A stretch of 63,931 bases of DNA, the filler included, from Collodictyon triciliatum (Eukaryota): NCBI GenBank assembly GCA_043381765.1. It is 6 parts of 6 records of this genome, joined end to end, with 100 filler letters (N's around TTAATTAATTAA, not from the genome) between each part and the next. Parts side by side here need not be neighbours in the genome. Positions count along the whole stretch, not along the records: positions 57,268 to 63,931 come from JBHJMP010002467.1; 5 more parts are not named here. One strand, 5' to 3'. The notes under the pieces are model-generated. The model saw only the letters and a list, made by a program, of their open reading frames with translations, had not been told where the DNA came from and did not search any database. This document shows, piece after piece, positions 556 to 63,931 of the stretch (position 1 is the stretch's first letter; each line of letters starts with the position of its first letter). The position numbers were made by a program, and so were the translations under genes.

Positions 556-3500
556 TCAATACTTTTTCCCTTTGAAATTGCCTTTCTTTTGCTTGGCAGG
601 CTTGCCCTCGTCCGAGAGTCCATGACGCTTCTTCTCCTGAGTCACAGCCACGTGAAACATCAGGACAAATAAATGGAGCAGTCCCAAAACACCCCAAACA
701 AAAAGCAACAGTAACGCGCATTTCAATTGCGAAAAAGAAAGATTCAAGAAAAGAGAAGAAAAAGAGAAGTATCTCTTAAAGATATTTCCAAATAATTTTA
801 CTTACGCCACTACTCTTAATAGAGATAGATTGCGGTATGCTGGATTTCCCTATTCCTGCAGCGTCCCAATCTTCTTCGCGGCTGCGAATGGCAAATCTGT
901 AGTATATATGAAGGAAAACAAAAATGATTTTATTTGCAGATGAGAATGAGTATAACGCGATTCATCATAATTTTTTCTGTTCTTGAAGATTAGTATTTCT
1001 CATTTTGCCTTTGGAGCTCGCTTGGCATAAGGAGGGACTTCTGCTTCTCTTGAAGCTCCTTGTTGACAACAGCACTCCCAGCTGTGATTGCGCAATGAAA
1101 TTGATAAGCAATCAGATCAATAAAGCACACCTTGCTTCAACTATCTTTTTAATATAAAATACTAGGCATCGCTATAATGAAGTCATTCCATACCGTCCAG
1201 TTCATCATCAAGTGATTCTCTTAGAGGCTATGATGGTATTTGAAAGAAATACATTAAAATCACATGGTTGAATATAGTCCATGGTGTAATATATAATAGT
1301 AAATATGAACGCAGAGCACACACATTTAGCTCAACATCCTTCATTGGTGCAAGCGTTGCTTCGATGCTAGTTCCCACTGATGACTGTACAATTAAAATTA
1401 TATGAGTTCTTTGGAACCATCCATTTCTATTCTGATTCTTCGTCTTATCACATTATTACTCAAACACAAGATTATATTAGCAGTGATCAGAAGATACATC
1501 ATATTTGTGAAAATATTGCCTCGAGTGCATGGTTGAACTTTCGAGTAATCTTTTTAAACAGAGCAAGAATTTGGTTGACCGGAAGACCAAGGTTTTCCTG
1601 AATTAGCATATAAAAAATATGAACATCGGGTGGCGAATTTTCTTCTTGATTCAAGTTTTTCTTCATAATAAGAATATGAAAAAGGACAAGAATAAGGATA
1701 TGAATGAAGCTTCATAGTTAACTTCTACATTACAATATGCAGAAATACGCATATGTCAATCGCAACGATAAAGGAAATTTTCCTGCTGGATATCAACCCA
1801 TCAAACGTATAGTCGTATAATACCTGAATATCCTCGACTGTTCGATGCTGTAGACCCATTCCGAGTAAGATAGCAGACTGGACATAAGATAGCTGGAATA
1901 AAGCCGTTCAACGAAATCAGAAAAAATGCTGCAGTTTGTAAAGTCGCCATCTGTATTCCACATTATCTGTGAAAGAACACAACGATACTCGGTATAGACA
2001 TACATTCATGGAATATCTGCGGGAGAAGTAGTCGCGAGCCAAAGCTGGAAGCATATCCATGATGACATGATAGTCCACCAAGTCTCTTGCATATGCATCG
2101 AGTCTTTTGAGGTCGTACTTACTGAAACGAGCATCAATTTCATCACGTGTCATCTTACATTGTGACTCTCCCTTGTCTAATTCATATAGATTTTAATACA
2201 TACGACTGCTGGTGGTAGGGATAACTCAATTGACTCAAAGCATTTTTGACGATGTCAATAAAGAAATAAATAAATAGCTGATTACAAAAAAATACCATCT
2301 GGTTCGGAAGTAGATGAAGCGTCAATTACACTTAGGCACAGAGCCGCGGGTAGGGTAGAGAAGGAATACGACAGAAGCGAAAGAAACCGTGAATGGAAGT
2401 CTGGTAATACGAAGGGGAGTTAAAAGGTGAAAATAATCACCTAGGAAGAAAAACTTTCAGCGATTGTATAACCCTTTTTTTTTCATACCTTGGACAAAGG
2501 ACTCGAGCCAGTTTTGCTGTTTTAAAAGAGGAGAATATGGTTATTAAAATGATCTTATTTCGGCCATAAATCAAAAGCTGTGAATCCTCCGTTAATAAGG
2601 AAAAGGAATACATATATGAGGTATTTTTAAATCTTTGATAACAAAAAAAAATAAAAATAATAATAACATAGAAGATGACCTCGCAATTTGTGTCCAAATC
2701 ATCCGACTTTAGGCCGTTAATCATAATACAGGTGAATTCACCAGTCAACTCATTCTAAGGAATTTTTTTGTTTCCATTTTTCAGGGTAATTGGTACATTA
2801 ATAAAGACAAACTTAATAGTTGCTGTTATAAAATGATGTATTATAATGCATGAAGCTATTCTATACCTGGGTCTGGCGGACATACACTGGTGAATACGAA
2901 GCCTTCTTCCAGAAATTGTAAAGTGTTTGATTTAAGCCGTACCTGATATAGGTGAATGATGGTTAGGGTGCATCATCTTTGTCTTCAATATTGGCCATCG
3001 CCACAAATAAGTCCAAAAAAAAAAAAAGAAGAAGAAAAGAAAGAAGGGTAGAATCCATACTAATGATACTTACGCAACTCCGATGTAATGTAGCCTCTCA
3101 GGAACCCTTTCGTCTAATTTCTGTAGGAGAGGAGGGAGATTGCGTCGGGGTCGGACAATTTCCTCCAGTAAGCTCTCATCTTTCTCTTGGTCCTAATCAA
3201 ATAAAGAAAATGATGAAAACGGATGTTGTTGCTTTCTTTGTGAGATACATTCTCATGAGCAGAAATGAATGTCTCGAAAGAAGATAACCTTTTTTGATTT
3301 TGATGAACTCGGCCCAGCAACTGCCTTTTTTTTTTTAAAAAAAAAAAAATTAAATAAAATAGAACGATTATTTACTCTCCATAACCAATCGGTCTTCATA
3401 GATTCTACAACTTGAAGTCAAATTGTTCCAGATAAATTGAAAAAAAAAATTCACGACCCAAGAAATACTACTTTTGAATAAAAATGTTCGTATACTGCAA

Positions 3501-6500
3501 ACCTCTTGTGCTTCATCGAGGTTGGTGAGTTCACCCTGATAGTAAGCGGCTAGGAGGTCTAATGCACGCTTGCCGTATCCCATCTAACCAAAAAAATAAA
3601 ATAAATGGTATATATAGTTCAGCAACCTTCTTTTTATTTTTTAGAGCTGCTCATTTCTTCGTCGTTATATTTCTAGCAAACGACATCTCATCAGTACCCT
3701 GTTATAATTTGGATGAGTGGCTATGCGAACAACACGGGCCCCGGAAAGGCTGGCAAAATTGCTATCTTGATACTAGTATGAGAATGGAATCAAATGAGTC
3801 AACTTAGTCTGATCAGCTGGCTAGAAAAGAATAGAGGGTAAATGAAGAGTGTATTTCTGGATGCTGTTAAAAGATTAGAGTACTGAATTTGTGTCCTACG
3901 AAGGAGCTTTCATGGAAAATATATTTTGAGGAATAAGGAGGGAAAGGAGTACTTGTTGCGAAATTGTCCAGGGGATCAAGTCTCCGGACGCTCTTTGTCC
4001 TCGAGAAAGCGAATTAAGAACGGTATGACGAGATATTTTCCCTTCTAGGCAAACTTGAATAACGCAGAGTATATCGGGGATGGAGCTTTGTGAAGGATTG
4101 ACAGGGCCTGCATGCGGGGCCAGAGTAAGTCTATGTAAATCGAGGTGACACAGCACTGGAGATATTACATACCTAGCAGCACAAAGAGTTGATGAGCAGG
4201 CGCGTCTGATAGAAGTTGCAGATCATCAGGGGTGTTCTTATAGTGGCTGGATACGTATCTATTCGAAAAAGATATTTTCATTATATCAGTTATATATGTA
4301 GGCAGTCATAAAGATAGCTGAAATTGCTCTGATATTCTTTTTTTGGATACAAAGTTATTGTAAATTTATCCCTTTTTTTTTTATTTATTTATTTATCGTA
4401 TTTTATTCACTAACAGAGCCATCATGCGTTGTAAAAAGGCCTCAGACGCTTTGTGGTATGAGAAAAGAGCATCCCGATCAACGTAGTATCTTTTCGATTT
4501 TGTAAAGTTTAGAATAAGAAAGAGGCATTTTACAACGAATTAAAGGATTATGAAAGAAAACCACAATTATTGCAATGAGCAAGGACAAGCTATGTGTCTG
4601 AGTTTATACAGTTCGCACGACGATGGGTGAGGACAGCCTCCAGATATCCTGGGAATCAGATTTGTTGCATCAAGACATAATATATCGTATAGCCATCTCT
4701 CAATGCGGTCTCCTGGTCTGTAGCGGATAGGTTCGTTAAGCTCAATCTCACGCAAGAGACGAGCTATTTTTAATTTAATTGAAGACTAAGTTTACAGCTT
4801 AGTTATTTCGAAAAAGTAAAGAACAAAAGCAAATCAAAAGAAGGAAGCAGAATATCAACCAATTTTTTCACTAACTCACAAGACAACAAAAATGATAATT
4901 AAATTCATTTACATAGAATATAAATATGAATAGAATAACAAACATCCAGCAGATGTCTGAACAGATGACCCGTCCGATGCAGTAGACGAAGTACTTTTTT
5001 CCCGAAGTTGCTGAATCAGCTTCAACGACAAGGAACGACCAGTACCTTCATATCTACATTGTTCCGTTTAATTTACAAATGTGTTATTGTAGAATCAAAA
5101 TTCTGGTGACCTGGCGTCTAATTTAATCAATAAAGAAATGAAACCCGTTTATAGTCGAGGCCATAAAGACAAGGTATGGACCCATCAGGTTTTTAACCAG
5201 TGGCAAGGGAATGGCAGCAGCCTATTATTATGATGAATTCTGTAATTGATTCTCCTACTTTTTGTCTATTTCTTTTTTTTTTTATTGAAAAATATCAGGT
5301 TAACAAAGAGCCAAGTCCCTTTCGTAATAGGTGATTATTCTACAAAGTAACCTCTTACTTCATCAATCACAACAAGCTCGGCCTGACCCAACTTTAAGTG
5401 GTCTTGTGGTTGAATATACTGCAAGAGTATGATTGATTTCGTATGACTAAGATTAAAGCTATTCAAATCGGAGAATATATAAAAGAGCGATTCAAAGTCT
5501 TTCAAAGAATTTAAAGAAAGATAGTCGGTTAGTAAATGCATACATATAAACATATGAGAGGAAAATCGGTTGGTCTCGTTACGATTATTACTTGAATAGT
5601 TTGCCTATGTGACCGGAAGATGTTGACCCGAACGACAGCCTTGTTAAACTCAGGATTTGTTGACTGGACGAGTTCATAATCCAAGTGTTCCTGTAAATTT
5701 TTATTGGTGGTGGCTATTGTTAGAACCCGCTCCCTTAAATCTCTTAAATAGCGCGGTGTAAATCGGGGGAAACTAAATAGGATTTCTCTTTCAAAAAATC
5801 AAGTAAAAATTGGTAATGTGTTAAAAATAAGAGAAAAATAAGAGAAAAATAAGAGAAAAATAAGAGAAAAATAAGAGAAAAATAAGAGAAAAATAAGAGG
5901 AAATGATTCAATTTTATTCTTACTTGGTAATCTAGGGCGTCAAATCCTTTGAATATAAACTCAAATAAAGTTCTCAAGTTCTCAGGTGATGGAGAAGTTA
6001 CAAATATATTTGAATAACTACATATCATGTTCAAGAAAATTGAATCGATGATTAGATAAACTAAAAGCTGATGTACATACAGGTAAAAAAAAAAATTAAT
6101 TCAGATAAATCTTGCCCATATGCTACAGCTGCTGCAATTGACACTCCCAGAGCGGCTGATTTACCACGCCCACGTGCTGCAGTCAGTGTGACCTGGCCGA
6201 CAAAACAACGCAAAATTTTAGTAGACAGGTATAGTTTAAGTGCCGAAGCGGTTGGTGTGATTGGCAAATTCTAGAATAGTAAGGATATTCAAAATCGAAT
6301 ATGAATAGAAGTTTAGAAAGAATTACAGTGTTCCTGAGGGTTTTTTCGGAAATCGCCTCAGCAAAAGTAAGAATAGCCTTTGCCTGTAAATTATGGCGTT
6401 AGGGTCAGATCACATTTTGTCTCTAAAGATGAAGCGCCTGCACAAAATAACGACTGAAGTTATAGTCATGAGGAATACCTGATCTATGGTCTTTGCAGTT

Positions 6501-8143
6501 GCCACCAAACTTCCGATTGGCTGCGTGTCTCGAAGCGATTCTTTGAGTTCCTTGAGCTCCTCCGAGTCTCCTTCAGCGACCTCGTTTGTTATGTTTGGAT
6601 TGAGTTAATTTTTTATTCTTGTTGCGGCTAATTTTTTTTTTTTTTAGATAAATGAATGACTCCTAATTTATGCATATCTATTTCACTTTAAAAAGGAAAA
6701 GTTTCGGGAGAAAAAAAATCGGATACGACGAATAGTTCTTACTAGTTCTGTTACTGGCTCAATCTTGAGGGATGCAGATGAAATGGGAAGGATGTTTAAC
6801 TCGTCATCTACATCAAACCATGAGCGGTAATTAATAAGTTGTTACAGATGTTTATCTTATATTTTAAAAAAACGTCTGATGGAAGTGGCATCTTGAAAAT
6901 TATATAAAGTCATACCCAGAACCAAACAATCGCTGCATGAGCTGAGAGAAAGAATAAATCTTTCATTGAATCTTGCAACAACATCCTGATGGGCTTCAGT
7001 TCTCATTCTATCGTGAACATCCTACGTGTGTATCAATTTAACTATTTGAATATTAAACCTAATATATCATACATTTGTTATGCTTGCTTTTCTTCCTCGA
7101 GGAGTTTTCTTAATATGAAATAGCATTAAAACAAGCACACATTAGTGTTACCATAGACATGGAGTAGAGCTGTTTCAAAGATTTCATCGTGCGCAGAAGC
7201 AACACAATAATACCCCCTCCTTCAACCGTTTCCATTGTTCTGGCAAGAATACTGGGCGTTATAGCCTCGAAATCCTTGGAAATAGTTTGCGTATTTTAGA
7301 TGGGTACTTAATCCCTTATTTGAAGATAAAGGAAGATAGAGAAGACGATATTTCAAACAATTCATTTATTCCATTAAAGAGTCAGTACTTTGTACCTCAG
7401 TTGTATTTACAAGTACTTGTATTTTGGTTTTATCATCATCGTTAATTTTTGTAAATATACTGAATACAATTTTGAGAGCTCAATCACCTGCAAAACACAC
7501 ATTCCAAAAGTGTTTCCAAGGATCTTCTGAGTTTCAGAGTAGTAGCAGTACCGAATCGTGGTCGAAGAAATGAATAATTCGAATGGGTCATCTTGGTTGG
7601 GGTCAAGCAAGCCTTTCTTGACCATTTTCTTTATTTGCTCAGCTCTCTTTCTTCGATGACTGGGAGACAAATAAACAAATAAACAAAAAGATTAATAAAA
7701 ATTAGATGGAATAAGGATACTGAATACACTTTAATCGTATGGTGCTATGTAATCAAAAGTGCCCAGCAACGAACCTTGTGAAACCTAGTTCCTTCTTGTA
7801 GCACCATAAGACAGACGGACGACTACGAACGACAGTTTTCGAAAGGATGTAGTGAAGATTGACCACCTGAAAAACAAAGAGATGTAAATGGGTGTCTTTG
7901 TGGAGCTTTCTTCAAGAATCAAGGCCTAACTGCAACATACAAGGATTATTCTCAGAGGGTAGATAAGTACTATGGGTAAAGTGGAGCGAAAGAAGTTTGC
8001 AAAAAGCGCGAAACGGTCACATATGAGTCCTTCCTTACTTGCTCCTTTCCGCGATCCCCAACTATGACAAAAAAGCTGCGATGATGCAACTTGACGCAGT
8101 TTTCGATGAGTGTTCGGATGCGGCTATCGACTTTCTTTTTCAT
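556..8143 (-). CDS. NAT10: RNA cytidine acetyltransferase NAT10/Kre33, complete and multi-exon
   Basis: Spliced frame MKKKVDSRIRTLIENCVKLHHRSFFVIVGDRGKEQ/VVNLHY..., Walker A TAARGRGKSAALG, LVVIDEAAAIP, STINGYEGTGRSLSLKL, GNAT region SGARVVRIATHPNYNRMGYGKRAL, Lys-rich C-terminus ...KKGNFKGKKY* at 556. Confidence 0.97.
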
Positions 8144-9141
8144 TTCCTTCGAGAAAACCTAGGCAATAGACTAGAGAAAAAAAAGGAAAGAGAGAAAAAA
8201 CAAGGCTTGTGAGTCTGGCGGCCCGCACAAAGAAGTGCTTCGCAGTCACTTATCAGCCTATTTTGGCATCGCAGCAAAATGGTGGGAAGGAAAAGCGGAA
8301 GATACGACTGATCTTTGGGATCGTATTGTTCGGAAAGGCTGCTCAGCCTGTTCGCACGTCTTTGAAGTCTTGCTTGTAGTTTACTCGGGATTTGCGGGCA
8401 GGTAAAAAAGAACGACGCTAAGCAACAAGACCATGAAACAAAAACAAATCAAAAAACCCACCTGTGTGGTCTTTTCCAGAATAGGTATATATTCGGTGTA
8501 ATAGGCTTTGGCAGGCGGTTGTGATAGAACCACGGAAGGGTTTTCTGCAAATTGTCCGAGCTCGGCGCTGCACAAGACAAGACAAGGCAATACAATACAA
8601 TACAAGACAAGACAAGACAAGACAACACACAACAGAGATGCAGATGCAAATACCCTTCAAAAATGTATTGTCCAATCACACGATTTCATAATTCGTGGGT
8701 GCAATTCATTTAATGGGCGAACTTTTTTCTTTCAAGCCAGGTAAAATCCGGACGAGTTGCGAATCGCAAGCAGAATCTTTTCCTTCATTTCAACATCCGT
8801 GGGATATGGACGAAGCTTCAACAAATTTGTACGGGTGAGGCCTTCTTGATTTGCCCCAATTCATTTAAACTCCAGAAAGTGAGTCAGTGATAGCGAGGTG
8901 GTTGGGTGGGCGACCCAACTGATTGATTTGTTACGTGGGTAGCAGGGGTTGGATGTGTTGTGGGAGATATCTCACGACATATTCCCACATCTCTCTTCGC
9001 TTGCGGTCAGAGTAGCGAAGAATGCGAGCGTGTTTCAGCAGGCTGTTCGGGAAGCTATATTGCAAGAGGCTCTCAAGCCTGGATACATTGATTTCTCGTT
9101 CGGGCGAATCATTAGAGCGAGAGAATGCCCGCACACCCCAA

Positions 9142-10915
9142 GGAAAGTTCATCTATATAAACATATTCTTGGGTTTTTTTTTATTATCTGAATCTTGAAT
9201 TTGAAATACCTATCTTTTCAAACGATAATGACACCGCCAAGCCGTCTGTTTGTAACATGTATTTAAAATTCTAGTATCTTTGATGAAAGACCCTCTTCTT
9301 CATTTCAAAGAAATCATCCCATAGGGTCTCTTTTCATCCTGAGATATTCTTCAGTAATGTTTTTCTAGACAATACTAATAGACCTATCAAACGTGCAGTA
9401 TCTTGAGTAATATGACATGGTACATAATTAGTTCTTTTAAAGATTGGTTGTAGCAGTTTGGTTCCAATGTCCTCAAAAATGCGATTCATGTAAATCAGAC
9501 ATGGTATGTACTTATTTGAATTGACTTCGATGTCATATTCGATACTATTTACAATATCGCTAGGAATGATGTGATGCAAAGCGTTATACCCCATTCTTCG
9601 TATTGTTCCGGTATTTCGAGTTTCTTGAAGATGGTTTTTTTTTAACTTTCGTAACCCTGTCTTTTTAATAGCTTCCGTAATATTCTCATCTTTAGGAACC
9701 GTTTGATTTATAAAGCGCAGCAAACTCTTTTCAAAATGCTCCTTAATGTTATTATGATAAGCTGTTAACATTTACTTTGCCAAGTACGGTAGTACACGAG
9801 ACAGTCTAACCAACATAAAGCGTTCTTCTCGGGACAAAAGGAATCGAAAATCATTGAGATAAAAAGTCATCAGTCAAATCTCATATATGGATGTTTTAAT
9901 CTTGCGAGTCTATCTTATGAAACTATTCCGACTATCTTAAAAACGCACAAAAAAGAAACATTTTATCGATTGTTGAGACTTGTTGTGATTTCAATGTGTC
10001 ACATCTTGCAAACAGATAAGTGTCGGTAACCAAATTATGACACAATATAACCGTATCGTTGATTTTGTCATAGTCATCCGCATTCTTTACAATCGACTTT
10101 AGAGATGCTTTCACATTTCAATGGCCTGGTTTTCCGGACTTAAGATTCCTAGACTCAAGACGTTTCTTTTCTTCATGTGAAAGTCTTTGTTTTACTTTTT
10201 TTTTCTTTTAGAAAACTACCAAGTTCTCAATTTAATAAAACCTTAGTCAATCAGCCAATTTAATGAAAGAAAAAAAGAAAAACTGCATAAAATCAATTTA
10301 TGTAAAATTAAGCATCTACCGAGACTCTCAAAATGTGCGCATTGCGGCAAACAAACACACAAAGTTTTTTTTTTTTTTTACAAGTGATTTTTGGACAAAA
10401 CGCTGAGAGCCGATTCGGCGAGTTCGAAAGGACGGCCGTATAGCCATTGCGACTGAAAGTCAACATATCGGCCCCAAACAACATGATTACCGATGCAAGT
10501 GTGGATAGTATGCTTTTTTGATATGCATGTTTGGTGGCAGTTTTACAGGGTGGGTTCTATCTGGGCCAAGGAAACGGCTTGTTTGTATTTTTTGAATTTT
10601 TGAGTTTTAATATAACATAAATGAAAATAAAATATAAATTGATTACAGGAATAGTATGAGATTGTTAAGTATTTTTAACCTTACTATGTATACTAATCAC
10701 ACTATTATATTATTCAGGTTGTTTCTTGGATTCGTCAAGGCTCCTGCTTTGTCAATCCAGATTTAATTCTATGGTTGTCTGTGCTATAAATTGCTATATA
10801 TGTGCACACTTTCGTTGCATAAAAAGTGTTGTGCTTAGAAGGGATAAAACCAAGTTCATCGCAACCTTTGTAATGAAGTTAACGCATTTACAGGCTGAAT
10901 GAGACCGAAGAGAAA
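9142..10915 (-). mobile_element. Fanzor element copy A, 3'-truncated and pseudogenised (no RuvC part)
   Basis: Reverse complement aligns continuously by eye with 40900-42788. ATG at 10176. Fragments KASLKSIVKNADDYDKINDTV and MLTAYHNNIKEHF...LLRFINQ. Homology stops after ..EYVYIDELS at about 9142. Confidence 0.9.
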
Positions 10916-12759: not shown

Positions 12760-13107
12760 CTTCGTTGAAGTAACAATAAATTAATAAAAAAACAAANNNN
12801 NNNNNNNNNNNNNNNNNNNNNNNNNNNNNNNNNNNNNNNNNNNNNNNNNNNNNNNNNNNNNNNNNNNNNNNNNNNNNNNNNNNNNNNNNNNNNNNNNNNN
12901 NNNNNNNNNNNNNNNNNNNNNNNNNNNNNNNNNNNNNNNNNNNNNNNNNNNNNNNNNNNNNNNNNNNNNNNNNNNNNNNNNNNNNNNNNNNNNNNNNNNN
13001 NNNNNNNNNNNNNNNNNNNNNNNNNNNNNNNNNNNNNNNNNNNNNNNNNNNNNNNNNNNNNNNNNNNNNNNNNNNNNNNNNNNNNNNNNNNNNNNNNNNN
13101 NNNNNNN

Positions 13108-41293: not shown

Positions 41294-41741
41294 ATAATCA
41301 ATTTATATTTTATTTTATATTTTTATATCATATCATTAAAATTCAAAAAGACAAACAAGCCCTTGCGTTGGCCCAGACAGAACCCACACCATAAACCTGC
41401 CACCAAACATGCATTTCAAAAAAAGCATACTGTCCACATTTGCGGCGGTAATCATGTTGTTTGGAGCCGATATGTTAACTTTCAGTTGCAATAGCTATAC
41501 GGCCGTCCTTTCGAACTCGCCGAATCGGCTCTCAGCGTTTTGTTTCATATCACTTGTAAAAAAAACTTCGCGCGTTTGTTTGCCGCAATGCGCATATTTT
41601 GAGTCTCGGTAGATGCTTAATTTTACCTGAATTGATTTTTTGCAGTTTATTTATTTGACCAATAGACTGATTGACTAAAGATTTATTAAAATTGAAAACT
41701 CAGTGGTTTTCTAAAGGAAAAAGCAAAACGAAGACTTTCAG

Positions 41742-43691
41742 ATGAAGAAAAGAAAGCGTCTTGAGTCTGAGAATCTAAAGCCTGTAAAACCACACTATCA
41801 AAATGTAAAAATGTCTCTAAAGTCGACTGCAAAGAATGCGGATGACTATGACAAAATCAACGATACGGTTTTATTGTGTCATAATTTGGTTACCGAAACT
41901 TGTCTGTTTGCAAGATGTTACACACTGAAATCACAACTCCCAACAACCGATGAAATGAAAGTTTTTTTTGTACGCTTTGAAGACTGTTGGAATAGTTTCA
42001 CAAGATAACCCCGCAAGATTTAAAACATCCAGATATGAGTAAAGATATGATGATTTTTTATCTCAATGATTTTCGATTCCATTTGTCCCGAGAAGAACGC
42101 TTTCCGTTGGTTGGACTGTCTTATGTATTACCGTACTTGGCGAAGCAAATGTTAACAGCTTATCATAATAACATTAAGGAACATTTTGTAAAGAGATTAC
42201 TGCGCTTTATAAACCAAACAGTCTCTAAACATGAGAATATTACGGAAGCTATTAAAAAGGCAGAGTTGCGAAAGTTAAAAAAAAAAAAAAACCATCTTCA
42301 AGAAACTCGAAATACCGGAACAATATGAAGAATGGACTACAACGCATTTGCATCGTATCATCCCAGCGATATTGTAAATGGTATCGAATATAACGTCAAA
42401 GTCAATCCAAAGAAGTACATTCCATGTCTGATTTACATGAATTGCATTTTTGAGGACACCGGAACCAAACTGTTTCAACCAATCCCTACAAGAACTAACA
42501 ATATACCATGGCATAATACTTTAAATAACGCATGTTTGATAGATATGTTTGTATCAACTGGAAAAACATCATTATTGAAGAATATATCAGGATGCAAAGA
42601 GACCCAATGGGATAAGTTCTTTGAAATGAAGAAGAGGGTCATTCATCAAAGAGACTACAATTTTAAATACATGATACAAACAGACGGCTTGGCGGTGTCG
42701 TTATTGTTTGAGAAGAAAGTTATTTCAAATTCAAAATTCAAATATAATCGAAATACCCAAGAATATGTTTATATAGATAAACTTTCCGAAGAGCATTTAT
42801 ATTTATTAGCGACAAAAAAAATAAAAATAAAATAGTTGGAGTAGACGCAGGCAAGTTTAATTTGGTTTACATGGTGGATGAGACAGGTAAGAAATTACGT
42901 TACACAACACACCAAAGAAGACATGATAGCAAATCTCTTAAAAATCACAAAATACTCTTGCGCGAGAAAAAAAAGTACAATGATTTCAGGGATATATATG
43001 GCAACAGATTTACAAAGTGCTATTTCTTTTGGTGCCATGACTTTTGAAGAGAATCAGCGGTTTAAGACATCAAGAGTATCTTTAATCGATTTAGAGAGAA
43101 CTAAGTAAACACATTTCATGCACGGTCGATTATGAAAAATTTCGAAAGTATATATCTATGAAATCAAGATACCAGATAGAATTATCCAGATTTTATGAGC
43201 ACGTAACTTTTCGAAAGATGAGATGGAGACAGTATGTTAATACAAAAAGAAGTGGACAATTGTTTACGGACCGAATCTAAAAGAGATTTGGCAAGGATGT
43301 CGTACTGGCGTATGGAGACTGGAGCAGAAAATCTCCGGTGAAACATTTTATGCCGACAATCGAAAGAGGATTACGAAAAATACAATCCAAACGTTTTGAA
43401 ACAGTTAGTGTAAATAAATTTAGAACCTTCAAGATGTGCTGCAACCGCGAAAAAGAACTGGAATGAATGAAACTGAAAGGAATACAAAAAAAGGTGTATA
43501 GATGTCTCATGTGTAAAGTATGCAATCGCTCAGAAAGCAAACAAACTGTATTCTTGACAAGGGACTTTAACAGTGCTAATAATATACTTAACAAAGTTCT
43601 TTTTATCCTTCAAAAAAAGCATACATATTTCCCTAAAAAACAGGCTGTCAGGTGTTTCCTGGCGGACTTCACCACTACACAATCTTTGTGA
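41742..43691 (+). pseudogene. Fanzor (TnpB-derived RuvC RNA-guided endonuclease; Fanzor1/giant-virus-like type) pseudogene
   Basis: Basic N-terminus MKKRKR, YMIQTDGLAVSLLF, RuvC-I IVGVDAGKFNLVYM (D at 42844), LRYT..QRR, LAYGDWS...MPT..RGLRK, RuvC-II SVNKFRT (expected E is K at 43416), C-terminal CC..R/CKVC, RuvC-III TRDFNSANNIL (D at 43563). Several frameshifts and stops. Confidence 0.92.
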
Positions 43692-59108: not shown

Positions 59109-61060
59109 AAAATCGATGGTATGTTGATCTCTATAAAATGGCCATAATTTGTGCTTTTTCCTATTCAGAAAGAGTATATTTGCAGACAGTAGAATCTACA
59201 TCTTCCAAGTAATTAAATAAATAGGGTCAACTTGCTTATTTATGAATCTAGGTTTGCAAGATGAAAGGCAGATGTCACGCACAGGTCATGTACTCTTTTT
59301 CTGTGAGTATTTTTTTAACAACACATGTGTCACATTTCAAGATCGAAACCCCGAATTAAAATTACTCCACCTCAGAAGATGGCTTCTGTGCAAATCGTAT
59401 CTACCTCAATTTAACTTATTGAAGTGAATCTATGTGTGTTTTGTTGACTCATTACTATGTATTTTTGTCATGAAGACCGTTTTTCTTATATTACTACAAT
59501 TTTCGCACCGATTATAAAAAAATTCAATTATATGATAAAGTATCAATCTATCAACACTCTGGACTCTGTTTACACAGTATGAGTGATTGATTTCATGATG
59601 ATTTTAAATCTTAAGTTACCAATCTAATAGCACGCTTTCTCAATGATATGTCACAAAAGCCATGGAAAGCAAGGTATACCAATTTCTTTTCATCTACACT
59701 AATATTCTTGTGCTTTATATTAACAAAATTTTATTTTTGAGAATCATGAGGATTTATTGTATTCACATTTAATTCCGCTAAATAATATTATGTTTAACAC
59801 AATATTCAAAATTATTAGGTTTACACTTCAAGGATTATAGAAAAAAGATTATATGGTGCCTTATTTCGGAATCTACATTTAAAGGGTTTTGTCTAAGTTT
59901 AATTTGGAATAATCATCTTTTCAATTGAAAACAATATTTACAGTTTTTATGAAACAATTTACTGTACAACATATTTTCATCTATTGCAATATTGATTTTG
60001 ATTTTATAATTAACTAATAGTTAAAGCAAAAAATTATCACAATATCATGAAGATCTCGTAGTGATGTGCAAAATAGTACCAAATAAATCCAAAGAACATT
60101 TTTGGGCTTAATCTGGTATAAAGAAAGAGTTTAATTAAAATATTACGCACTAAGAAGTTATATAAATTTGTTTTCTTTTCAATTTCAATTTAATTATGAT
60201 ACCATTTTCTTTTTTTTTCGTCCATAAGTACTAATTTCTATAAATTTAAAAAAACGGAAGTTCTAGAATTCATTATTCAAACCAAAAAATTTCTTCATTC
60301 CTTTACCTATTTTGCATATCATTTTAAAATTCATGACTTATACTTAATATGATGAAAAATAGTTGTATTAAGCCGATGAAGTATAATTTATAATTTTGGA
60401 TAGTGCATACCTTTGAAGTAAATGATAGCTATTTGAAAAGAACTTAAAACTAAATTTCAATTTGTTTGAACTCCTTTTTTTGGGTTTCAAAGTATTGCAA
60501 AGCTAATTGTAAAATAGTGAAATTTTTTAGTCAGTCACATAGATGGGTGCAAATTTTGTCGCATATAAAATACAAAAATGTAACCAAATGCTGTTGCTTA
60601 ATTAAATGAACGCATAATTAGACCAATACTTTATTTCTTATTTAATTAAAAAAACAGAAACCAAAATTGACAATTCGAATGAAGTCTTTAACTCAAAAAT
60701 TAATGTATTTCAACGTATAATTTATTTTTTCTTGAATACTGATAGAAAAATCTACATTAAAAATTTTCTCATGATTTACGTTAAATGGAAAAAAAGATGA
60801 GTGATGGTCATTATCTGGACATGCTTTATTGATAACAAAAAAATTTTTTACTTAGAATCTATCGAAAGACAAAAAATGACAAGAATTGCATCATATAATT
60901 AGCAATAATAAATGAATAATAAACTTTTCAATGCGAGATAAACCTGTGTCGGTTCTATAATTATAATATGAAAATATTTACGATTGTTCTAATTTTTGAT
61001 AAATTTACTTTTTAAGCCTCTGTGTGAGCATTTCTTCATTAGATATCGAACCTCATTCAA

Positions 61061-63931
61061 ATGGATGGTGCTGAACCTCTCTGTTTCTGGTGAGCAAAAT
61101 ATCAGTGAGATTCATTAATTTCAAGTTTGAGGTTATTTAATCTTGTAATAGGCGAGATATATTTGCGTCAGAAGAAAGTAAAAGTATCTTGCGACCCAAT
61201 TATTTCTTCGAATGGGAAGGACCTCCTCTCAAAGTAACTGTGACGTATGTTTTACATAATTGATAAAATCTATATTGTGTATTAGTCTCTTGATTGAATT
61301 TATTTGACAGACGCTCAAAGCTCTTAGTTGCAATTGTTGTCATATCTTTCACTTTGGCATCAGTGTCCCCAAACCGGCCCCTCCAAAAGTATGTTTTTAT
61401 TCAAAAAGCGATGCATTTTGGAATATCAACTAAAACAAAGAAAACAGATGCCAGTATACAAGAGATGAGCTACTTTCGATGAAAATCGATGAATCTTTCC
61501 AAATTCTTTTGGGCCATTACGATGAAACATGTCCTTCTCCAAATGAAAATGAAAATTATCAATTAGAAATTATGAATGCAGAAAAACAAGAAAAATATTC
61601 ATACCAAAAGAATGACAAATCTAAATGGAATTATGATATCAAGAAGCCCAATATCGAGGCTGAATTCTGTAATGAAATTCGCTCATCAAAACGAAATGAG
61701 AGTGAGCAATTCGTTTTGAGTAATGAAGTGAGCCGAAATACGGAAGATAGTAATACTGTGAGTCAATATGAACTCCTTGTTCAGCTCTACAAAATACTTG
61801 GAGGTGATGGTTGGTATATGAGCTATGGATGGAATGATATTAACACACCGATTTGTTGGTGGTATAAGATATCCTGTTCTTGGAATTGCCTGTATGAACA
61901 ATATTGGGTAATTTTTTTAAGCCATGACAAATTCATCTCGATTTTAATTATCTTTGAATTGAAAAAAGGAAAAATCGATTTTAATCATAGTATGATTATG
62001 CTTATAGGACAATTCATGTCCCATAGTTGAAATAAGTCTGCTAGGAAATAATCTCAATGGCGATATTGAAGCTGCCTTTAAGATTTTTGAGAGACTCCCA
62101 TTTTTGTATTTCTTGGACTTGAGTTACAACTCCATTTTTGGAAATCTTCCAAACTTCAATCTCCCAAGTATACATTATCTCTACTTCTATGGAAATCGAA
62201 TTGTTGGAACGATTTCAGACTTTCACGGAATGCCGAATATTGTAAATTTCGATATCCAAGGGAATAAATTAGAAGGAACAATACCAAATTTTTCTGGAGT
62301 CCAGTCCCTGAAGATTTTATTAATTGGAATGAGCGATAAACTCACAGGTTCTGATATTTTTTTTAATATTATCATTCTAGATTTTTATTATAATTTGTAT
62401 TTCAGGAACTTTGCCTGATTTCTCGGGATTACCCAATGTTCAGATTCTTGAAATTAGGGGCTGCAAAATTTATGGTTTGTATTTACTTAATTCTAAATTA
62501 TGGAACAAAGCACTAAATTAACATCACAGGAACGGTTCCAAACTTCAGTGGAATTCCCAGTGTCGAAAAAATTGATTTTGGCGGCAACCAGTTGAATGGC
62601 ATGATTTGTGATTATTACACATAAAGTCGATTAAGCACTAATTCTACATCACAGGAACGATTCCAAACTTCAGCGGACTTCCTTATGTTTCTACGATTGT
62701 TCTCACCTACAACCAACTCACTGGTAATATTTATTATAACTGCATATTTGATTTATTTAGTATTAATCCTATACCACAGGAGCGATTCCAAACTTCAGTG
62801 GCATTCCGTACACTAAAGAACTTTTCCTTTTCTACAATCAACTGACTGGTAAGCATTGTAAATACTGCATAATAAATTAATTAAGCTCTAACATTGTACC
62901 GAAGGACCAATTCCAAACTTCAGTGGTATTCCAAATACTAAAGTATTGGGACTTTTCAACAACCAAATTGAAGGTAATCTTTATTTGCTAATTTCAATTA
63001 CTCCAGATATAAATACTCACTTTATTACAGGAACGATTCCAAACTTCAGTGGCATTACTTATGTTTCAGATATTTATCTTGGAATAAATAGATTAACAGG
63101 TAATTCATTATTTCTTATATTATGGATGAAAGCTAACGTTACATAACAGGAACTATTCCAAACTTCGATGGCATTCCAAGTGTGAGGCTGATAGATGCTC
63201 CCAATAACTATCTGACAGGCAATTTTCAATTTTTTTAGAATAGAATTGTTACTAGCATTAACTCTATACTTCAGGATCAGTTCCAAACTTCAGCGGAATT
63301 CAACATGTCTCCAATATTTTACTTGGAATAAATCAACTAAATGGTAACTTTGAAGTTTATTATGAATGAATTTTTGATGAAATACTAATTAAATATCCCA
63401 GGAACAGTTCCAAACTTCAATGGAACCCAATATGTCACAGAATTTAAATTGTCATCCAACAAGTTGAGCGGTACATTTTTTTTAAAAGTCATAATTTTAT
63501 AAAATTATATGCTAAATTATGATTTATGATAAGGAACAATACCGGATCTCGAATATCTATATAGTATCATAATTTTGGACTTTTCTGATAATCACTTAAG
63601 CGGTAAGCAAATAAAGAATAAAAATTGAATAAAAAAAGGCAGAAAATACTAATTGGAGGAAGAGATATGGTCAGTACATGTTGAATATATATTTCCCTAA
63701 AAGATTTTTTCTAAATTAATAGGCCAAGTTCCAGCCTTTTATAATTGCTTCAATTTAAATGAAATTTCACTATTCAGAAACAATCTGAACAGCTCTCTCT
63801 CTTCGTTATATTTACCGTTTTTGGGAATATTTGATGCCAGCGAGAATCATATTACAGGCACTATACCAAACAACTGGTACATTCCGTCCATAGAGGAACT
63901 TGACTTATCGAACAACGAAATGATCGGAACT
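61061..63931 (+). CDS. Extracellular LRR (receptor-like) protein: hydrophobic signal/anchor, LRRNT cap, plant/protist-type LRRs; runs off window
   Basis: KLLVAIVVISFTLASV, cap LLVQLYKILGGDGWYMSYGW...ICWWYKISC, repeats LxxLxLxxNxLxGxIPNFSG, ten 69-nt single-repeat exons from 62406 to 63602. Start codon inferred. Confidence 0.92.

What the first reader, a model, noticed from the sequence alone, without database searches (positions are those of the whole stretch)
62349..63722. One-LRR-per-exon cassette array with invariant DNA core and hypervariable face: candidate receptor-diversification system
Seen: ten consecutive 69-nt (23-aa) exons at 62406, 62530, 62655, 62780, 62905, 63031, 63150, 63275, 63402 and 63534, all phase 1-1, separated by 50-63-nt introns (period about 125 bp). 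Some introns are themselves paralogous (aagcactaa...acatcacag). TTCCAAACTTC is identical, including silent sites, in eight exons, while the xxLxLxx positions differ almost completely (EKIDFGG, STIVLTY, KELFLFY, KVLGLFN, SDIYLGI, RLIDAPN, SNILLGI, TEFKLSS). Two cassettes use weak GC donors. Known: a comparable design in Ectocarpus LRR-ROCO genes was linked to exon shuffling and proposed immune function. Inference: any exon can be skipped, duplicated or swapped in frame, giving a combinatorial recognition repertoire.
Basis: partly seen in the sequence, partly recalled or inferred. Interest (0 to 1): 0.72.

Follow-up and report, generated by a model that had tools for sequence, protein, structure and literature searches.

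The report
One-repeat-per-exon LRR gene in protist
A freshwater protist gene for a surface leucine-rich-repeat protein builds ten of its repeats from ten equal 69-base exons, a real and tidy modular design that is already known from brown algae and shows no clear sign of being a repertoire-generating system.

Summary
Ten 69-nt exons, all phase 1-1, each encode one 23-residue LRR. They are separated by introns of 50-63 nt, and two of these have GC donors. The 11-nt core occurs 9 times in the window against 0.07 expected. Spliced contigs of run X2 join five cassettes in genomic order at 100% identity, including one junction at a GC donor.

The array is the middle of a larger gene: start at 61061, a hydrophobic signal/anchor exon, an N-terminal domain with an LRRNT-like cysteine cap, five LRRs in one exon, the ten cassettes, then at least three more LRRs running off the window. 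Its nearest named relatives are Diphylleia rotans transcripts, for this gene and for the neighbouring NAT10 gene. The host is therefore probably a collodictyonid (CRuMs).

The exon register matches the 72-nt 'type I LRR exon' of brown algae, but there are no spare, intronic or reverse-strand cassettes. The units are old (60-70% alike), and the 'hypervariable face' is ordinary repeat-to-repeat LRR variation. One divergent contig lacks one cassette. The silent-site invariance of the core is real and unexplained. Verdict: a new member of a known kind, of modest interest.

The parts
61061..61089 (+). Predicted exon 1 with the start codon
   Evidence: It is the only in-frame ATG that opens the frame through exons 2 and 3, and it has a GT donor at 61090. 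No RNA joint was seen, so this exon is inferred.
61152..61244 (+). Predicted exon 2 (cytosolic N-terminal tail)
   Evidence: It has an AG acceptor and a GT donor, and the frame stays open. A 9-letter loose end of an X16 contig before 61311 matches the end of this exon. This is weak support.
61311..61388 (+). Exon 3: hydrophobic signal peptide or signal-anchor segment
   Evidence: The highest 19-residue Kyte-Doolittle window of the model lies here (residues 43-61, mean 1.8). The joint 61388|61448 has GT..AG ends in an X16 contig. Diphylleia homologues carry a signal peptide at the equivalent place.
61448..61907 (+). Exon 4: N-terminal domain ending in an LRRNT-like cysteine cap
   Evidence: HMMER gave 135 hits at E<=1e-3. 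Four short ORFs end at the same exon boundary, and two hits are Diphylleia transcripts. Cys, Trp and Gly columns are invariant in alignment A1. The homologues give sub-threshold LRRNT_2 matches at the aligned place. The window's own exon gave no Pfam family at E<=0.01. The joint 61907|62008 is seen in an X2 contig with 0 other letters.
62008..62347 (+). Exon 5: five LRRs without introns; holds a ninth copy of the core at 62147
   Evidence: Pfam gives LRR_4 at 1.2e-8 and LRR_1 at 1.2e-7. The best solved relative is the FLS2 ectodomain, 4mn8_A, at E 5.8e-30. The exon aligns with Diphylleia P0216 at 38% over 94 aa.
62406..62474 (+). LRR cassette 1 (divergent core)
   Evidence: It lies in X2 record 11 at 100% identity, spliced to cassette 2.
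62530..62598 (+). LRR cassette 2, followed by the GC donor at 62599
   Evidence: The joint 62598|62655 is seen in X2 record 11.
62655..62723 (+). LRR cassette 3
   Evidence: The joint is seen in X2 record 11.
62780..62848 (+). LRR cassette 4
   Evidence: The joint is seen in X2 record 11.
62905..62973 (+). LRR cassette 5 (AAG acceptor)
   Evidence: The joint 62848|62905 is seen in X2 record 11.
63031..63099 (+). LRR cassette 6
   Evidence: Splice sites and frame only. No RNA joint was seen.
63150..63218 (+). LRR cassette 7, followed by the GC donor at 63219
   Evidence: Its last 41 nt are present in X2 record 12, joined to 63402.
63275..63343 (+). LRR cassette 8, absent from the divergent contig (record 12)
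   Evidence: Splice sites and frame only. It is bypassed by the joint 63218|63402.
63402..63470 (+). LRR cassette 9
   Evidence: The joint 63470|63534 is seen in X2 record 12, with 3 other letters in this exon.
63534..63602 (+). LRR cassette 10 (divergent core)
   Evidence: It is joined on both sides in X2 record 12.
63723..63931 (+). Last visible exon: at least three more LRRs without introns; runs off the window
   Evidence: The frame is open to the last base. Pfam gives LRR_1 at 2.2e-4. X2 record 12 continues 97 letters beyond the window.

Best explanation
This is the central part of an ordinary, expressed protein-coding gene of a freshwater protist, probably a collodictyonid related to Diphylleia. 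The gene encodes a membrane-anchored or secreted extracellular protein with at least 18 plant-type LRRs.

Ten of the repeats are encoded by a tandem array of [69-nt exon + ~56-nt intron] units. These units arose by old tandem duplication of one 125-bp unit, and on the evidence available they are spliced together constitutively.

Because every cassette is phase 1-1 and a multiple of three in length, repeats can be gained or lost in frame over evolutionary time. That would let copies of the family differ in repeat number, and the divergent transcript one cassette shorter is probably such a copy. The differences between repeats on the concave face are the normal make-up of an LRR binding surface.

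Shown: the exon structure, the splicing of 8 of 15 introns, the LRR identity, the family relatives and the silent-site invariance of the core. Inferred: the extracellular topology, the binding function (prey, microbe or mate recognition is not decided) and the tandem-duplication origin.
For: - Exon geometry and open frame.
- Splicing: X2 record 11 (352 nt, 0 other letters) joins five cassettes across four introns, one with a GC donor. Eight of the 15 joint rows coincide with predicted introns.
- LRR identity: Pfam and plant LRR-RLK ectodomains as the best solved relatives (113 distinct sequences at E<=1e-3, FLS2 at 5.8e-30).
- Collinearity with a relative: the spliced model aligns with Diphylleia transcript P0216 at 29.5% over 349 aa, E 1.8e-40. 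The homologue's signal peptide ends where exon 4 begins.
- Family: four short ORFs from other contigs end at the same exon-4 boundary.
- Old tandem origin: 125-nt units are 62-72% alike and 84-nt units 61-74% alike. Among the middle eight cassettes, pairwise identity is 78% for nt 1-30 but 44% for nt 31-54. Inter-cassette introns keep residual homology (11 of 55 pairs at z>=3.5) and a branch-like motif at a fixed 17 nt in 6 of 9.
- No spare cassettes.
- Only one LRR gene in the window: 17 LRR-motif hits fall in the 62-64 kb bin on the + strand, against at most 4 in any other bin.
- Host: the NAT10 exon is 89% identical to Diphylleia rotans. An unnamed hit reaches 83% and the other 118 listed are at or below 75%. 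NAT10 is recovered as 24 collinear HSPs.
Against: - X2 record 12 joins 63218 to 63402 and so lacks one cassette. I read it as a paralogue or divergent allele because it differs from the window by 3, 1 and 14 letters in its three main pieces. Exon skipping in a second allele is not excluded.
- Only two small runs supplied spliced contigs, and their RNA nature is the index's guess. Four of the nine inter-cassette introns have no RNA joint.
- Neutral old duplication does not predict the silent-site invariance of the core. In the PNF motifs the codons are CCA 10 of 10, AAC 9 of 10 and TTC 9 of 10. Elsewhere in the gene they are 9 of 28, 15 of 56 and 16 of 28. Neighbouring silent sites (Thr, Gly and the second Pro) vary.
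- The C-terminus is outside the window, so a signalling domain cannot be excluded.
- An embedding search pointed instead to clusters whose commonest known phylum is Bacillariophyta (scores 0.90 and 0.80). This is a weak lead against the taxon call.
Confidence: 0.6

Rival explanations
1. Combinatorial receptor diversification. The cassettes are alternatively included, skipped or exchanged, so that one locus yields many binding surfaces, as proposed for brown-algal LRR-ROCO genes.
For: All ten cassettes are interchangeable in frame. One contig lacks cassette 63275-63343, and the donor it uses sits where the window has a weak GC donor. Brown-algal genes with the same exon register are reported to have several splice variants (passage in PMC11378527).
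Against: The only contig identical to the window carries five cassettes in genomic order. The cassette-lacking contig is about 5% divergent, so it probably comes from another copy. There are no spare, relic or inverted cassettes. The 50-63-nt introns leave no room for them. The units are old. Trinity isoforms of the related Diphylleia gene differ in the C-terminal region and by an N-terminal truncation, not by LRR-sized indels.
Confidence: 0.12
2. The invariant nucleotide core is itself functional at the RNA or DNA level. It could be an A/C-rich exonic splicing enhancer that defines each 69-nt micro-exon just downstream of its acceptor, or a homology anchor for unequal recombination. This is compatible with the best explanation and would be an added layer.
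For: Four consecutive silent sites (the third positions of I/V, P, N and F) are invariant in 8 cassettes, while flanking silent sites vary. The core lies at exon positions 7-17. Contigs of another organism's run (X16) match the window only at 24-40-nt core segments at 90% or more. By my arithmetic on table 8, those segments sit at a 69-nt period (record positions 160, 229, 574, 643). The nucleotide core is therefore shared across family members. The first and last cassettes of the array have degenerate cores.
Against: The same 11-mer also occurs in the intron-less exon 5 (62147), where no acceptor is near. Preference for particular codons in a conserved motif, or shared ancestry, could contribute. 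No complementary intron element recurs: one inverted pair, I7, in one unit only. No functional test was possible.
Confidence: 0.25
3. The core is kept uniform by concerted evolution (gene conversion or unequal crossing-over) within the array, not by selection.
For: The central eight units are uniform in the core and the two edge units are divergent, a pattern typical of homogenised tandem arrays.
Against: Homogenisation should also carry the adjoining intron and the rest of the exon. Those are 44-57% alike in the exon, and the introns are only weakly similar. The longest shared tracts are about 20-25 nt.
Confidence: 0.08
4. The gene is a member of the LRR-ROCO family, a cytosolic candidate immune receptor with ROC-COR downstream.
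For: It has the same one-LRR-per-exon register as brown-algal ROCO genes. The C-terminus is unseen.
Against: There is an N-terminal hydrophobic anchor and an LRRNT-like cysteine cap. The nearest relatives are secreted or membrane LRR proteins of Diphylleia, one of which has a cysteine-rich region and several hydrophobic segments after the LRRs. The best solved relatives are plant receptor ectodomains.
Confidence: 0.03

Closest known systems
Type I LRR exons of brown algae (Ectocarpus and Saccharina LRR-ROCO genes and other LRR loci; Zambounis et al. 2012, PMC3341825; Teng et al. 2024, PMC11378527; passages read)
   Same: Each exon encodes one LRR. The exon begins at the Gly of the GxxP motif and ends after NxLx. 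The split codon is 1 base + 2 bases, and all exons are equal in length and symmetrical, so they are interchangeable in frame. The LRR consensus is plant-type. In Ectocarpus, 46 of 164 non-ROCO, non-kinase LRR loci also contain such exons.
   Different: The exons are 69 nt (23 aa) rather than 72 nt (24 aa). The introns are 50-63 nt and hold no relic or reverse-strand LRR exons, which are the evidence for 'dynamic shuffling' in Ectocarpus. The visible architecture is extracellular (anchor + LRRNT-like cap) rather than LRR-ROC-COR. The host is probably a collodictyonid (CRuMs), not a stramenopile. Cassettes form only the middle of the LRR domain, flanked by multi-LRR exons.
Plant LRR receptor-like proteins and kinases (FLS2, GSO1, ERL1, BRI1, PGIP)
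   Same: The GxIP-type LRR consensus is shared. These are the best solved-structure matches (FLS2 4mn8_A at E 5.8e-30). There is a cysteine cap before the first LRR.
   Different: The repeats are 23 rather than 24 residues. Pfam LRRNT_2 was not reached by the window's exon. No kinase or C-terminal TM is visible. The anchor is at the N-terminus. The exon-per-repeat structure is not the rule in plant genes (recalled).
Vertebrate glycoprotein-hormone receptor genes (LH/FSH/TSH receptors), with one LRR per exon and all introns in one phase
   Same: An LRR ectodomain is built from single-repeat exons of similar size and identical phase, taken as evidence of origin by exon duplication (cited in PMC11378527; otherwise recalled).
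   Different: The LRR class differs. The introns are long and the exons are not of strictly identical length. The genes are single-copy, conserved hormone receptors.
Diphylleia rotans LRR transcripts (EukProt EP00002: P0216, P0180, P0003)
   Same: They share the N-terminal domain, the cysteine cap and the 22-23-residue LRRs with a G-T-I-P-N/D-F start. P0216 is collinear with the model over 349 aa.
   Different: Identity is only 25-38%. P0003 repeats the [cap + few LRRs] module several times and ends in a cysteine-rich and multi-hydrophobic region. Their gene structures are unknown to me.

Membership tests
Leucine-rich repeat proteins (Pfam LRR clan) | Tandem repeats with LxxLxLxxN/CxL recognised by LRR profile models | tested here: met
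   Exon 5 gives LRR_4 at 1.2e-8 (35.4 bits against a cut-off of 27) and LRR_1 at 30.9 bits against 20.6. The last exon gives LRR_1 at 21.2 bits against 20.6. The cassettes were not scanned as a joined protein, but their consensus is read directly.
Plant-specific (PS) class of LRRs | 24-residue unit LxxLxLxxNxLxGxIPxxLxxLxx | tested here: inconclusive
   GxIP follows NxLx in 10 of the 11 units of 23 residues. The unit is 23 residues, not 24. The class definition is recalled.
Plant-type LRR ectodomain with LRRNT_2 cap | A Pfam LRRNT_2 (PF08263) match before the first LRR | tested here: not met
   The window's exon 4 gave 0 families at E<=0.01. Homologues P0216 and P0180 reach only 19.5 and 17.8 bits against a cut-off of 20.7 at the aligned motif. 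The cap is therefore LRRNT_2-like, not a scored member.
Brown-algal type I LRR exon arrays | Each LRR on its own exon, starting at the Gly of GxxP, with symmetrical phase | tested here: met
   compared with passages of PMC3341825 and PMC11378527.
Brown-algal type I LRR exon arrays | Exon length of 72 nt (24 aa) | tested here: not met
   All ten exons are 69 nt.
Brown-algal type I LRR exon arrays ('dynamic shuffling') | Inactivated or reverse-strand LRR exons inside the introns of the LRR domain | tested here: not met
   The 23-nt core with up to 3 mismatches gives 7 matches, all on the + strand in cassette exons. All 11 introns show no similarity to cassettes on either strand (z<=1.6).
Brown-algal type I LRR exon arrays | Alternative splicing giving different LRR combinations | tested here: inconclusive
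   One identical contig carries 5 of 5 consecutive cassettes. One contig about 5% divergent lacks one cassette.
ROCO proteins | A ROC-COR tandem domain after the LRRs | not testable with these tools
Dscam-like mutually exclusive exon clusters | Only one cassette of the cluster is present in each mRNA | tested here: not met
   X2 record 11 holds five consecutive cassettes in one contig.

The most novel reading that the evidence does not exclude
A deep-branching predatory flagellate (collodictyonid, CRuMs) has evolved, independently of brown algae, a diversifiable surface-receptor family. Each 69-nt LRR micro-exon carries a nucleotide-level conserved 5' core, shared across family members and species. 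The core would serve as a splicing or recombination anchor, so that cassettes are added, dropped or alternatively included in frame. The divergent transcript lacking one cassette would be the first glimpse of that.
Probability: 0.12. Interest if true: 0.6.

Novelty: new member of a known kind. Interest (0 to 1): 0.3.

Why it matters
Arrays with one repeat per exon are the textbook substrate for exon duplication and shuffling. In brown algae they have been proposed as a route to receptor diversity. Finding the same register (exon starting at the Gly of GxIP, codon split 1+2) in a probable collodictyonid would mean one of two things. Either this gene design is much older and more widespread than the stramenopile examples, or it arises repeatedly.

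The locus is also a compact natural test case for how 69-nt exons separated by ~56-nt introns are recognised. It has a fixed branch-site distance, two GC donors that work, and a patch of silent-site invariance next to each acceptor.

In my searches, no paper that mentions Diphylleia or Collodictyon together with 'genome' also mentions leucine-rich repeats: 12 of 22 papers were listed, and all 12 had 0 occurrences. The six papers holding both 'CRuMs' and 'leucine-rich repeat' do not describe such genes; I saw listings only, plus passages of one paper.

Tried and rejected
- Metagenome scan with two cores 100-130 nt apart. These were microsatellite-like or chance matches: 0 of 119 loci matched the spliced model by tblastn at E<=1e-3. 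This spent the only scan, so paralogues and the gene's 3' end could not be fetched.
- Whole genome: none is held.
- The look-up of sequencing runs: no RNA holder listed. Two runs that the index guesses to be RNA were laid anyway and gave spliced contigs.
- Six of the 15 joint rows have sides of only 21-25 letters and non-GT..AG ends. I set them aside as cross-matches of paralogous transcripts to the core, not as joints of this gene.
- Tandem Repeats Finder: no array reported.
- Rfam and tRNA scans of the window: nothing.
- Taxon from the Rieske ORF: one distant hit only.
- Diatom lead from the Atlas and a diatom LRR literature search (listing only): not pursued, because the named Diphylleia hits were stronger.
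- Introns as decayed cassettes, and the 120-nt intron as a dead unit: no similarity.
- An intron-core RNA pairing: one inverted pair in one unit only.
- LRR-sized isoform differences in the Diphylleia Trinity isoforms: none.
- Earlier findings of this scan: nothing held.
- Mini dN/dS from the divergent contig: 4 synonymous and 7 non-synonymous among the 11 listed differences. This is too few, and of uncertain orthology, to support selection.
- Structure prediction and fold search were not run, because the spliced protein is not a contiguous translation of the window.
- Supplementary tables of PMC3341825 (exon lists) are closed. They may hold nucleotide-level data on brown-algal cassettes.
Full report
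**1. The observation**

Reading the window and cutting it at the stated coordinates confirms ten exons of exactly 69 nt, starting at 62406, 62530, 62655, 62780, 62905, 63031, 63150, 63275, 63402 and 63534.
- Each is preceded by AG.
- Each is followed by GT (8 of 10) or GC (62599 and 63219).
- The introns between them are 55, 56, 56, 56, 57, 50, 56, 58 and 63 nt.

Joined, the exons read as one open frame of 230 residues in perfect LRR register. A Gly codon is split one base before and two bases after every intron, which is phase 1-1.

The 11-nt core is exact in eight cassettes and once more at 62147, giving 9 matches against 0.07 expected; 0 of 100 shuffles reach 9. A 23-nt version with up to 3 mismatches is found 7 times, only on the + strand and only in cassette exons.

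Tandem Repeats Finder missed the 125-bp period because whole units are only 60-72% alike.

**2. Is it spliced as read?**

No genome is held. Contigs of four public runs were laid on 61000-63931.

Run X2 is listed only as a guessed RNA run. One of its loose ends is a sequence I recognise (recalled) as a SMART-type cDNA primer, and it yields contigs that skip exactly the predicted introns.
- Record 11 (352 nt, 0 other letters) joins cassettes 1-5 across four introns, including the GC donor at 62599.
- Record 10 joins 61907|62008.
- Record 12 joins 63470|63534 and 63602|63723.

An X16 contig joins 61388|61448.

In all, 8 of the 15 joint rows coincide with 8 of my 15 predicted introns. Five of the nine inter-cassette introns are confirmed. 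Six rows have sides of 21-25 letters and non-canonical ends; I read them as paralogous transcripts matching only the core.

The remaining row joins 63218 to 63402 and so bypasses cassette 63275-63343. It belongs to record 12, which differs from the window by 3, 1 and 14 letters in its three main pieces, whereas records 10 and 11 are identical to the window. Record 12 is therefore most simply a paralogue or a divergent allele with one cassette fewer. Exon skipping in a second allele cannot be excluded.

Lake-water metagenome runs X1 and X3 hold near-identical unspliced pieces.

**3. The whole gene**

The array is the middle of a larger gene.
- 61061-61089: exon 1 with the ATG.
- 61152-61244: exon 2.
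- 61311-61388: exon 3, holding the most hydrophobic 19-residue window of the protein (residues 43-61, mean Kyte-Doolittle 1.8).
- 61448-61907: exon 4, an N-terminal domain ending in a Trp/Cys-rich cap.
- 62008-62347: exon 5, five LRRs with no intron.
- The ten cassettes.
- From 63723: at least three more LRRs with no intron, to the end of the window.

The frame is open throughout in the standard code (633 residues visible). Splitting the LRR region at the Gly of GxIP gives 17 segments, 11 of them exactly 23 residues.

Pfam recognises LRRs in exon 5 and in the last exon. The best solved relatives are plant receptor ectodomains, led by FLS2 at E 5.8e-30.

Only this one LRR gene is present in the window.

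**4. Relatives and host**

Exon 5 finds plant RLP/RLK proteins, Bacteroidota surface LRR proteins and one EukProt transcript.

An exhaustive HMMER search with exon 4 gave 135 hits at E<=1e-3. They fall into three groups.
- Giant intron-less multi-cap LRR proteins from metagenome contigs. One is named as a Promineifilaceae MAG protein.
- Four short ORFs (141-155 aa, 31-37% identical) that begin and end at the same exon limits as exon 4. These are family members with the same gene structure.
- Two transcripts of Diphylleia rotans.

The spliced model is collinear with Diphylleia P0216 over 349 residues (29.5%, E 1.8e-40). The homologue's signal peptide ends exactly where exon 4 begins.

Independently, the neighbouring NAT10 gene was recovered as 24 collinear HSPs at 797-8143 on the minus strand. 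One of its exons is 89% identical to Diphylleia rotans NAT10. One unnamed hit reaches 83% and the other 118 listed hits are at or below 75%.

I therefore place the window in a relative of Diphylleia (Diphyllatea/collodictyonids, CRuMs) with about 0.7 confidence. An embedding search instead suggested diatom-rich clusters; I treat that as the weaker lead.

Draft genomes of Collodictyon and Diphylleia are described in a 2026 preprint (passages read). That preprint had 0 occurrences of 'leucine-rich' in the listing.

**5. Origin and age of the cassettes**

Whole units are 60-72% alike. Among the middle eight cassettes, pairwise identity by segment is as follows.
- nt 1-30: 78%.
- nt 31-54, the xxLxLxx face: 44%.
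- nt 55-69: 57%.

Introns keep some homology: 11 of 55 pairs score z>=3.5, all among the eight introns from 62475 to 63401. Much of that lies in the last 20 nt, where a YTRAY motif starts exactly 17 nt from the acceptor in 6 of 9 introns. That is a splice signal as much as a mark of ancestry.

No intron resembles a cassette on either strand, and the 120-nt intron after the array is not a dead unit.

The picture is an old tandem duplication of a 125-bp [exon + intron] unit. It is not recent or ongoing shuffling.

**6. The 'invariant core, hypervariable face' claim**

The face is not special. The most variable positions (13, 14, 16, 18, 19; entropy 2.5-2.9 bits) are the x positions of xxLxLxx, which differ between repeats in any LRR protein (structural rule recalled). 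Diversifying selection can only be tested between alleles or orthologues, which I could not obtain. The 11 listed differences of record 12 split 4 synonymous to 7 non-synonymous, which is too few to interpret.

The core is more interesting. Codon usage in the P-N-F motif, compared with the rest of the gene, is as follows.
- CCA: 10 of 10, against 9 of 28.
- AAC: 9 of 10, against 15 of 56.
- TTC: 9 of 10, against 16 of 28.

Silent sites of the flanking Thr, Gly and second Pro codons vary freely.

Contigs from another organism's run (X16) match the window only at 24-40-nt core segments. By my arithmetic on table 8, those segments lie at a 69-nt period (record positions 160, 229, 574, 643). The nucleotide core is therefore shared across the family.

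Candidate causes are an exonic splicing enhancer beside each acceptor, codon preference in a conserved motif, or short-tract homogenisation. None could be tested. The presence of the same 11-mer in intron-less exon 5 argues against a purely splicing role.

**7. Comparison with what is known**

[quoted passage not shown] Shuffling was inferred there from intact or inactivated LRR exons inside introns, often on the opposite strand. Also, 46 of 164 non-ROCO, non-kinase LRR loci carry such exons (PMC3341825, passages).

Teng et al. describe the same 72-bp exons, in which nucleotides 3-71 encode 23 residues. That is the same 1+2 split codon. They also report splice variants with different LRR combinations, and they cite gonadotropin-receptor genes as a vertebrate parallel (PMC11378527, passages).

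The window's array shares the register, the symmetry and the LRR type. It differs in four ways.
- Unit length is 69 rather than 72 nt.
- The introns are minimal and hold no relic cassettes.
- The visible architecture is extracellular.
- The lineage is different.

It is not Dscam-like, because several cassettes co-occur in one mRNA.

**8. Verdict**

The mechanistic reading as a combinatorial repertoire generator is possible but unsupported; I give it about 0.12. The best reading, at about 0.6, is an ordinary member of a lineage-specific family of extracellular plant-type LRR proteins. Part of its solenoid was built by old tandem exon duplication, and that design allows in-frame gain and loss of repeats over evolutionary time.

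It is a new member of a known kind of gene architecture, in a poorly studied deep-branching lineage. The silent-site invariance of the core is a small unexplained residue.

Noticed in passing
window 797-8143 (- strand): A NAT10 (RNA cytidine acetyltransferase) gene split into at least 24 short coding pieces. One exon is 89% identical to the Diphylleia rotans transcript; an unnamed hit reaches 83% and the other 118 listed hits are at or below 75%. This is the main evidence for the host lineage.
   Followed up: yes
window 55974-56617 (- strand): Two exons of a Skp1/Elongin-C-like gene. Pfam Skp1_POZ scores 4.8e-5 and 1.1e-3; the resemblance to Elongin C is by eye.
   Followed up: partly
window 28001-34000: An island of higher G+C (0.43-0.49 against about 0.35 elsewhere). 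It holds a Rieske/KshA_C oxygenase-like ORF at 32135-32932 with only one distant relative in the near-length protein search (33% identity). Its origin is unexplained: host gene, transfer or mis-join.
   Followed up: partly
window 8801-10300 (-) and 41601-43100 (+): Two inverted copies of a dispersed repeat, 85% identical over 1136 nt. Each carries an ORF with no Pfam family. Probably a mobile element.
   Followed up: partly
window, 15 runs of N (for example 12797-13107, 35107-35573, 52077-52624): There are gaps or masked stretches, several as paired 44-nt runs. Long purine/pyrimidine microsatellites give poly-K/E/R or poly-F/L/S reading frames. The window is therefore a scaffold with gaps.
   Followed up: no
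proteins P0105, P0107, P0111, P0114: Giant (2000-3500 aa) intron-less LRR proteins on metagenome contigs repeat the LRRNT-like Trp/Cys cap 5-10 times. One is named as a Promineifilaceae (Chloroflexota) MAG protein. The cap motif is therefore shared between bacteria and this protist family.
   Followed up: no
window 63850-63871 and 63023-63044: In the intron-less last exon, the coding sequence at an LRR boundary is 86% identical to the intron-end-plus-core of a cassette (family D5). Both have ..ACAG|G.., a protosplice-like site. This fits introns lost from, or gained at, the same codon in different repeats.
   Followed up: no
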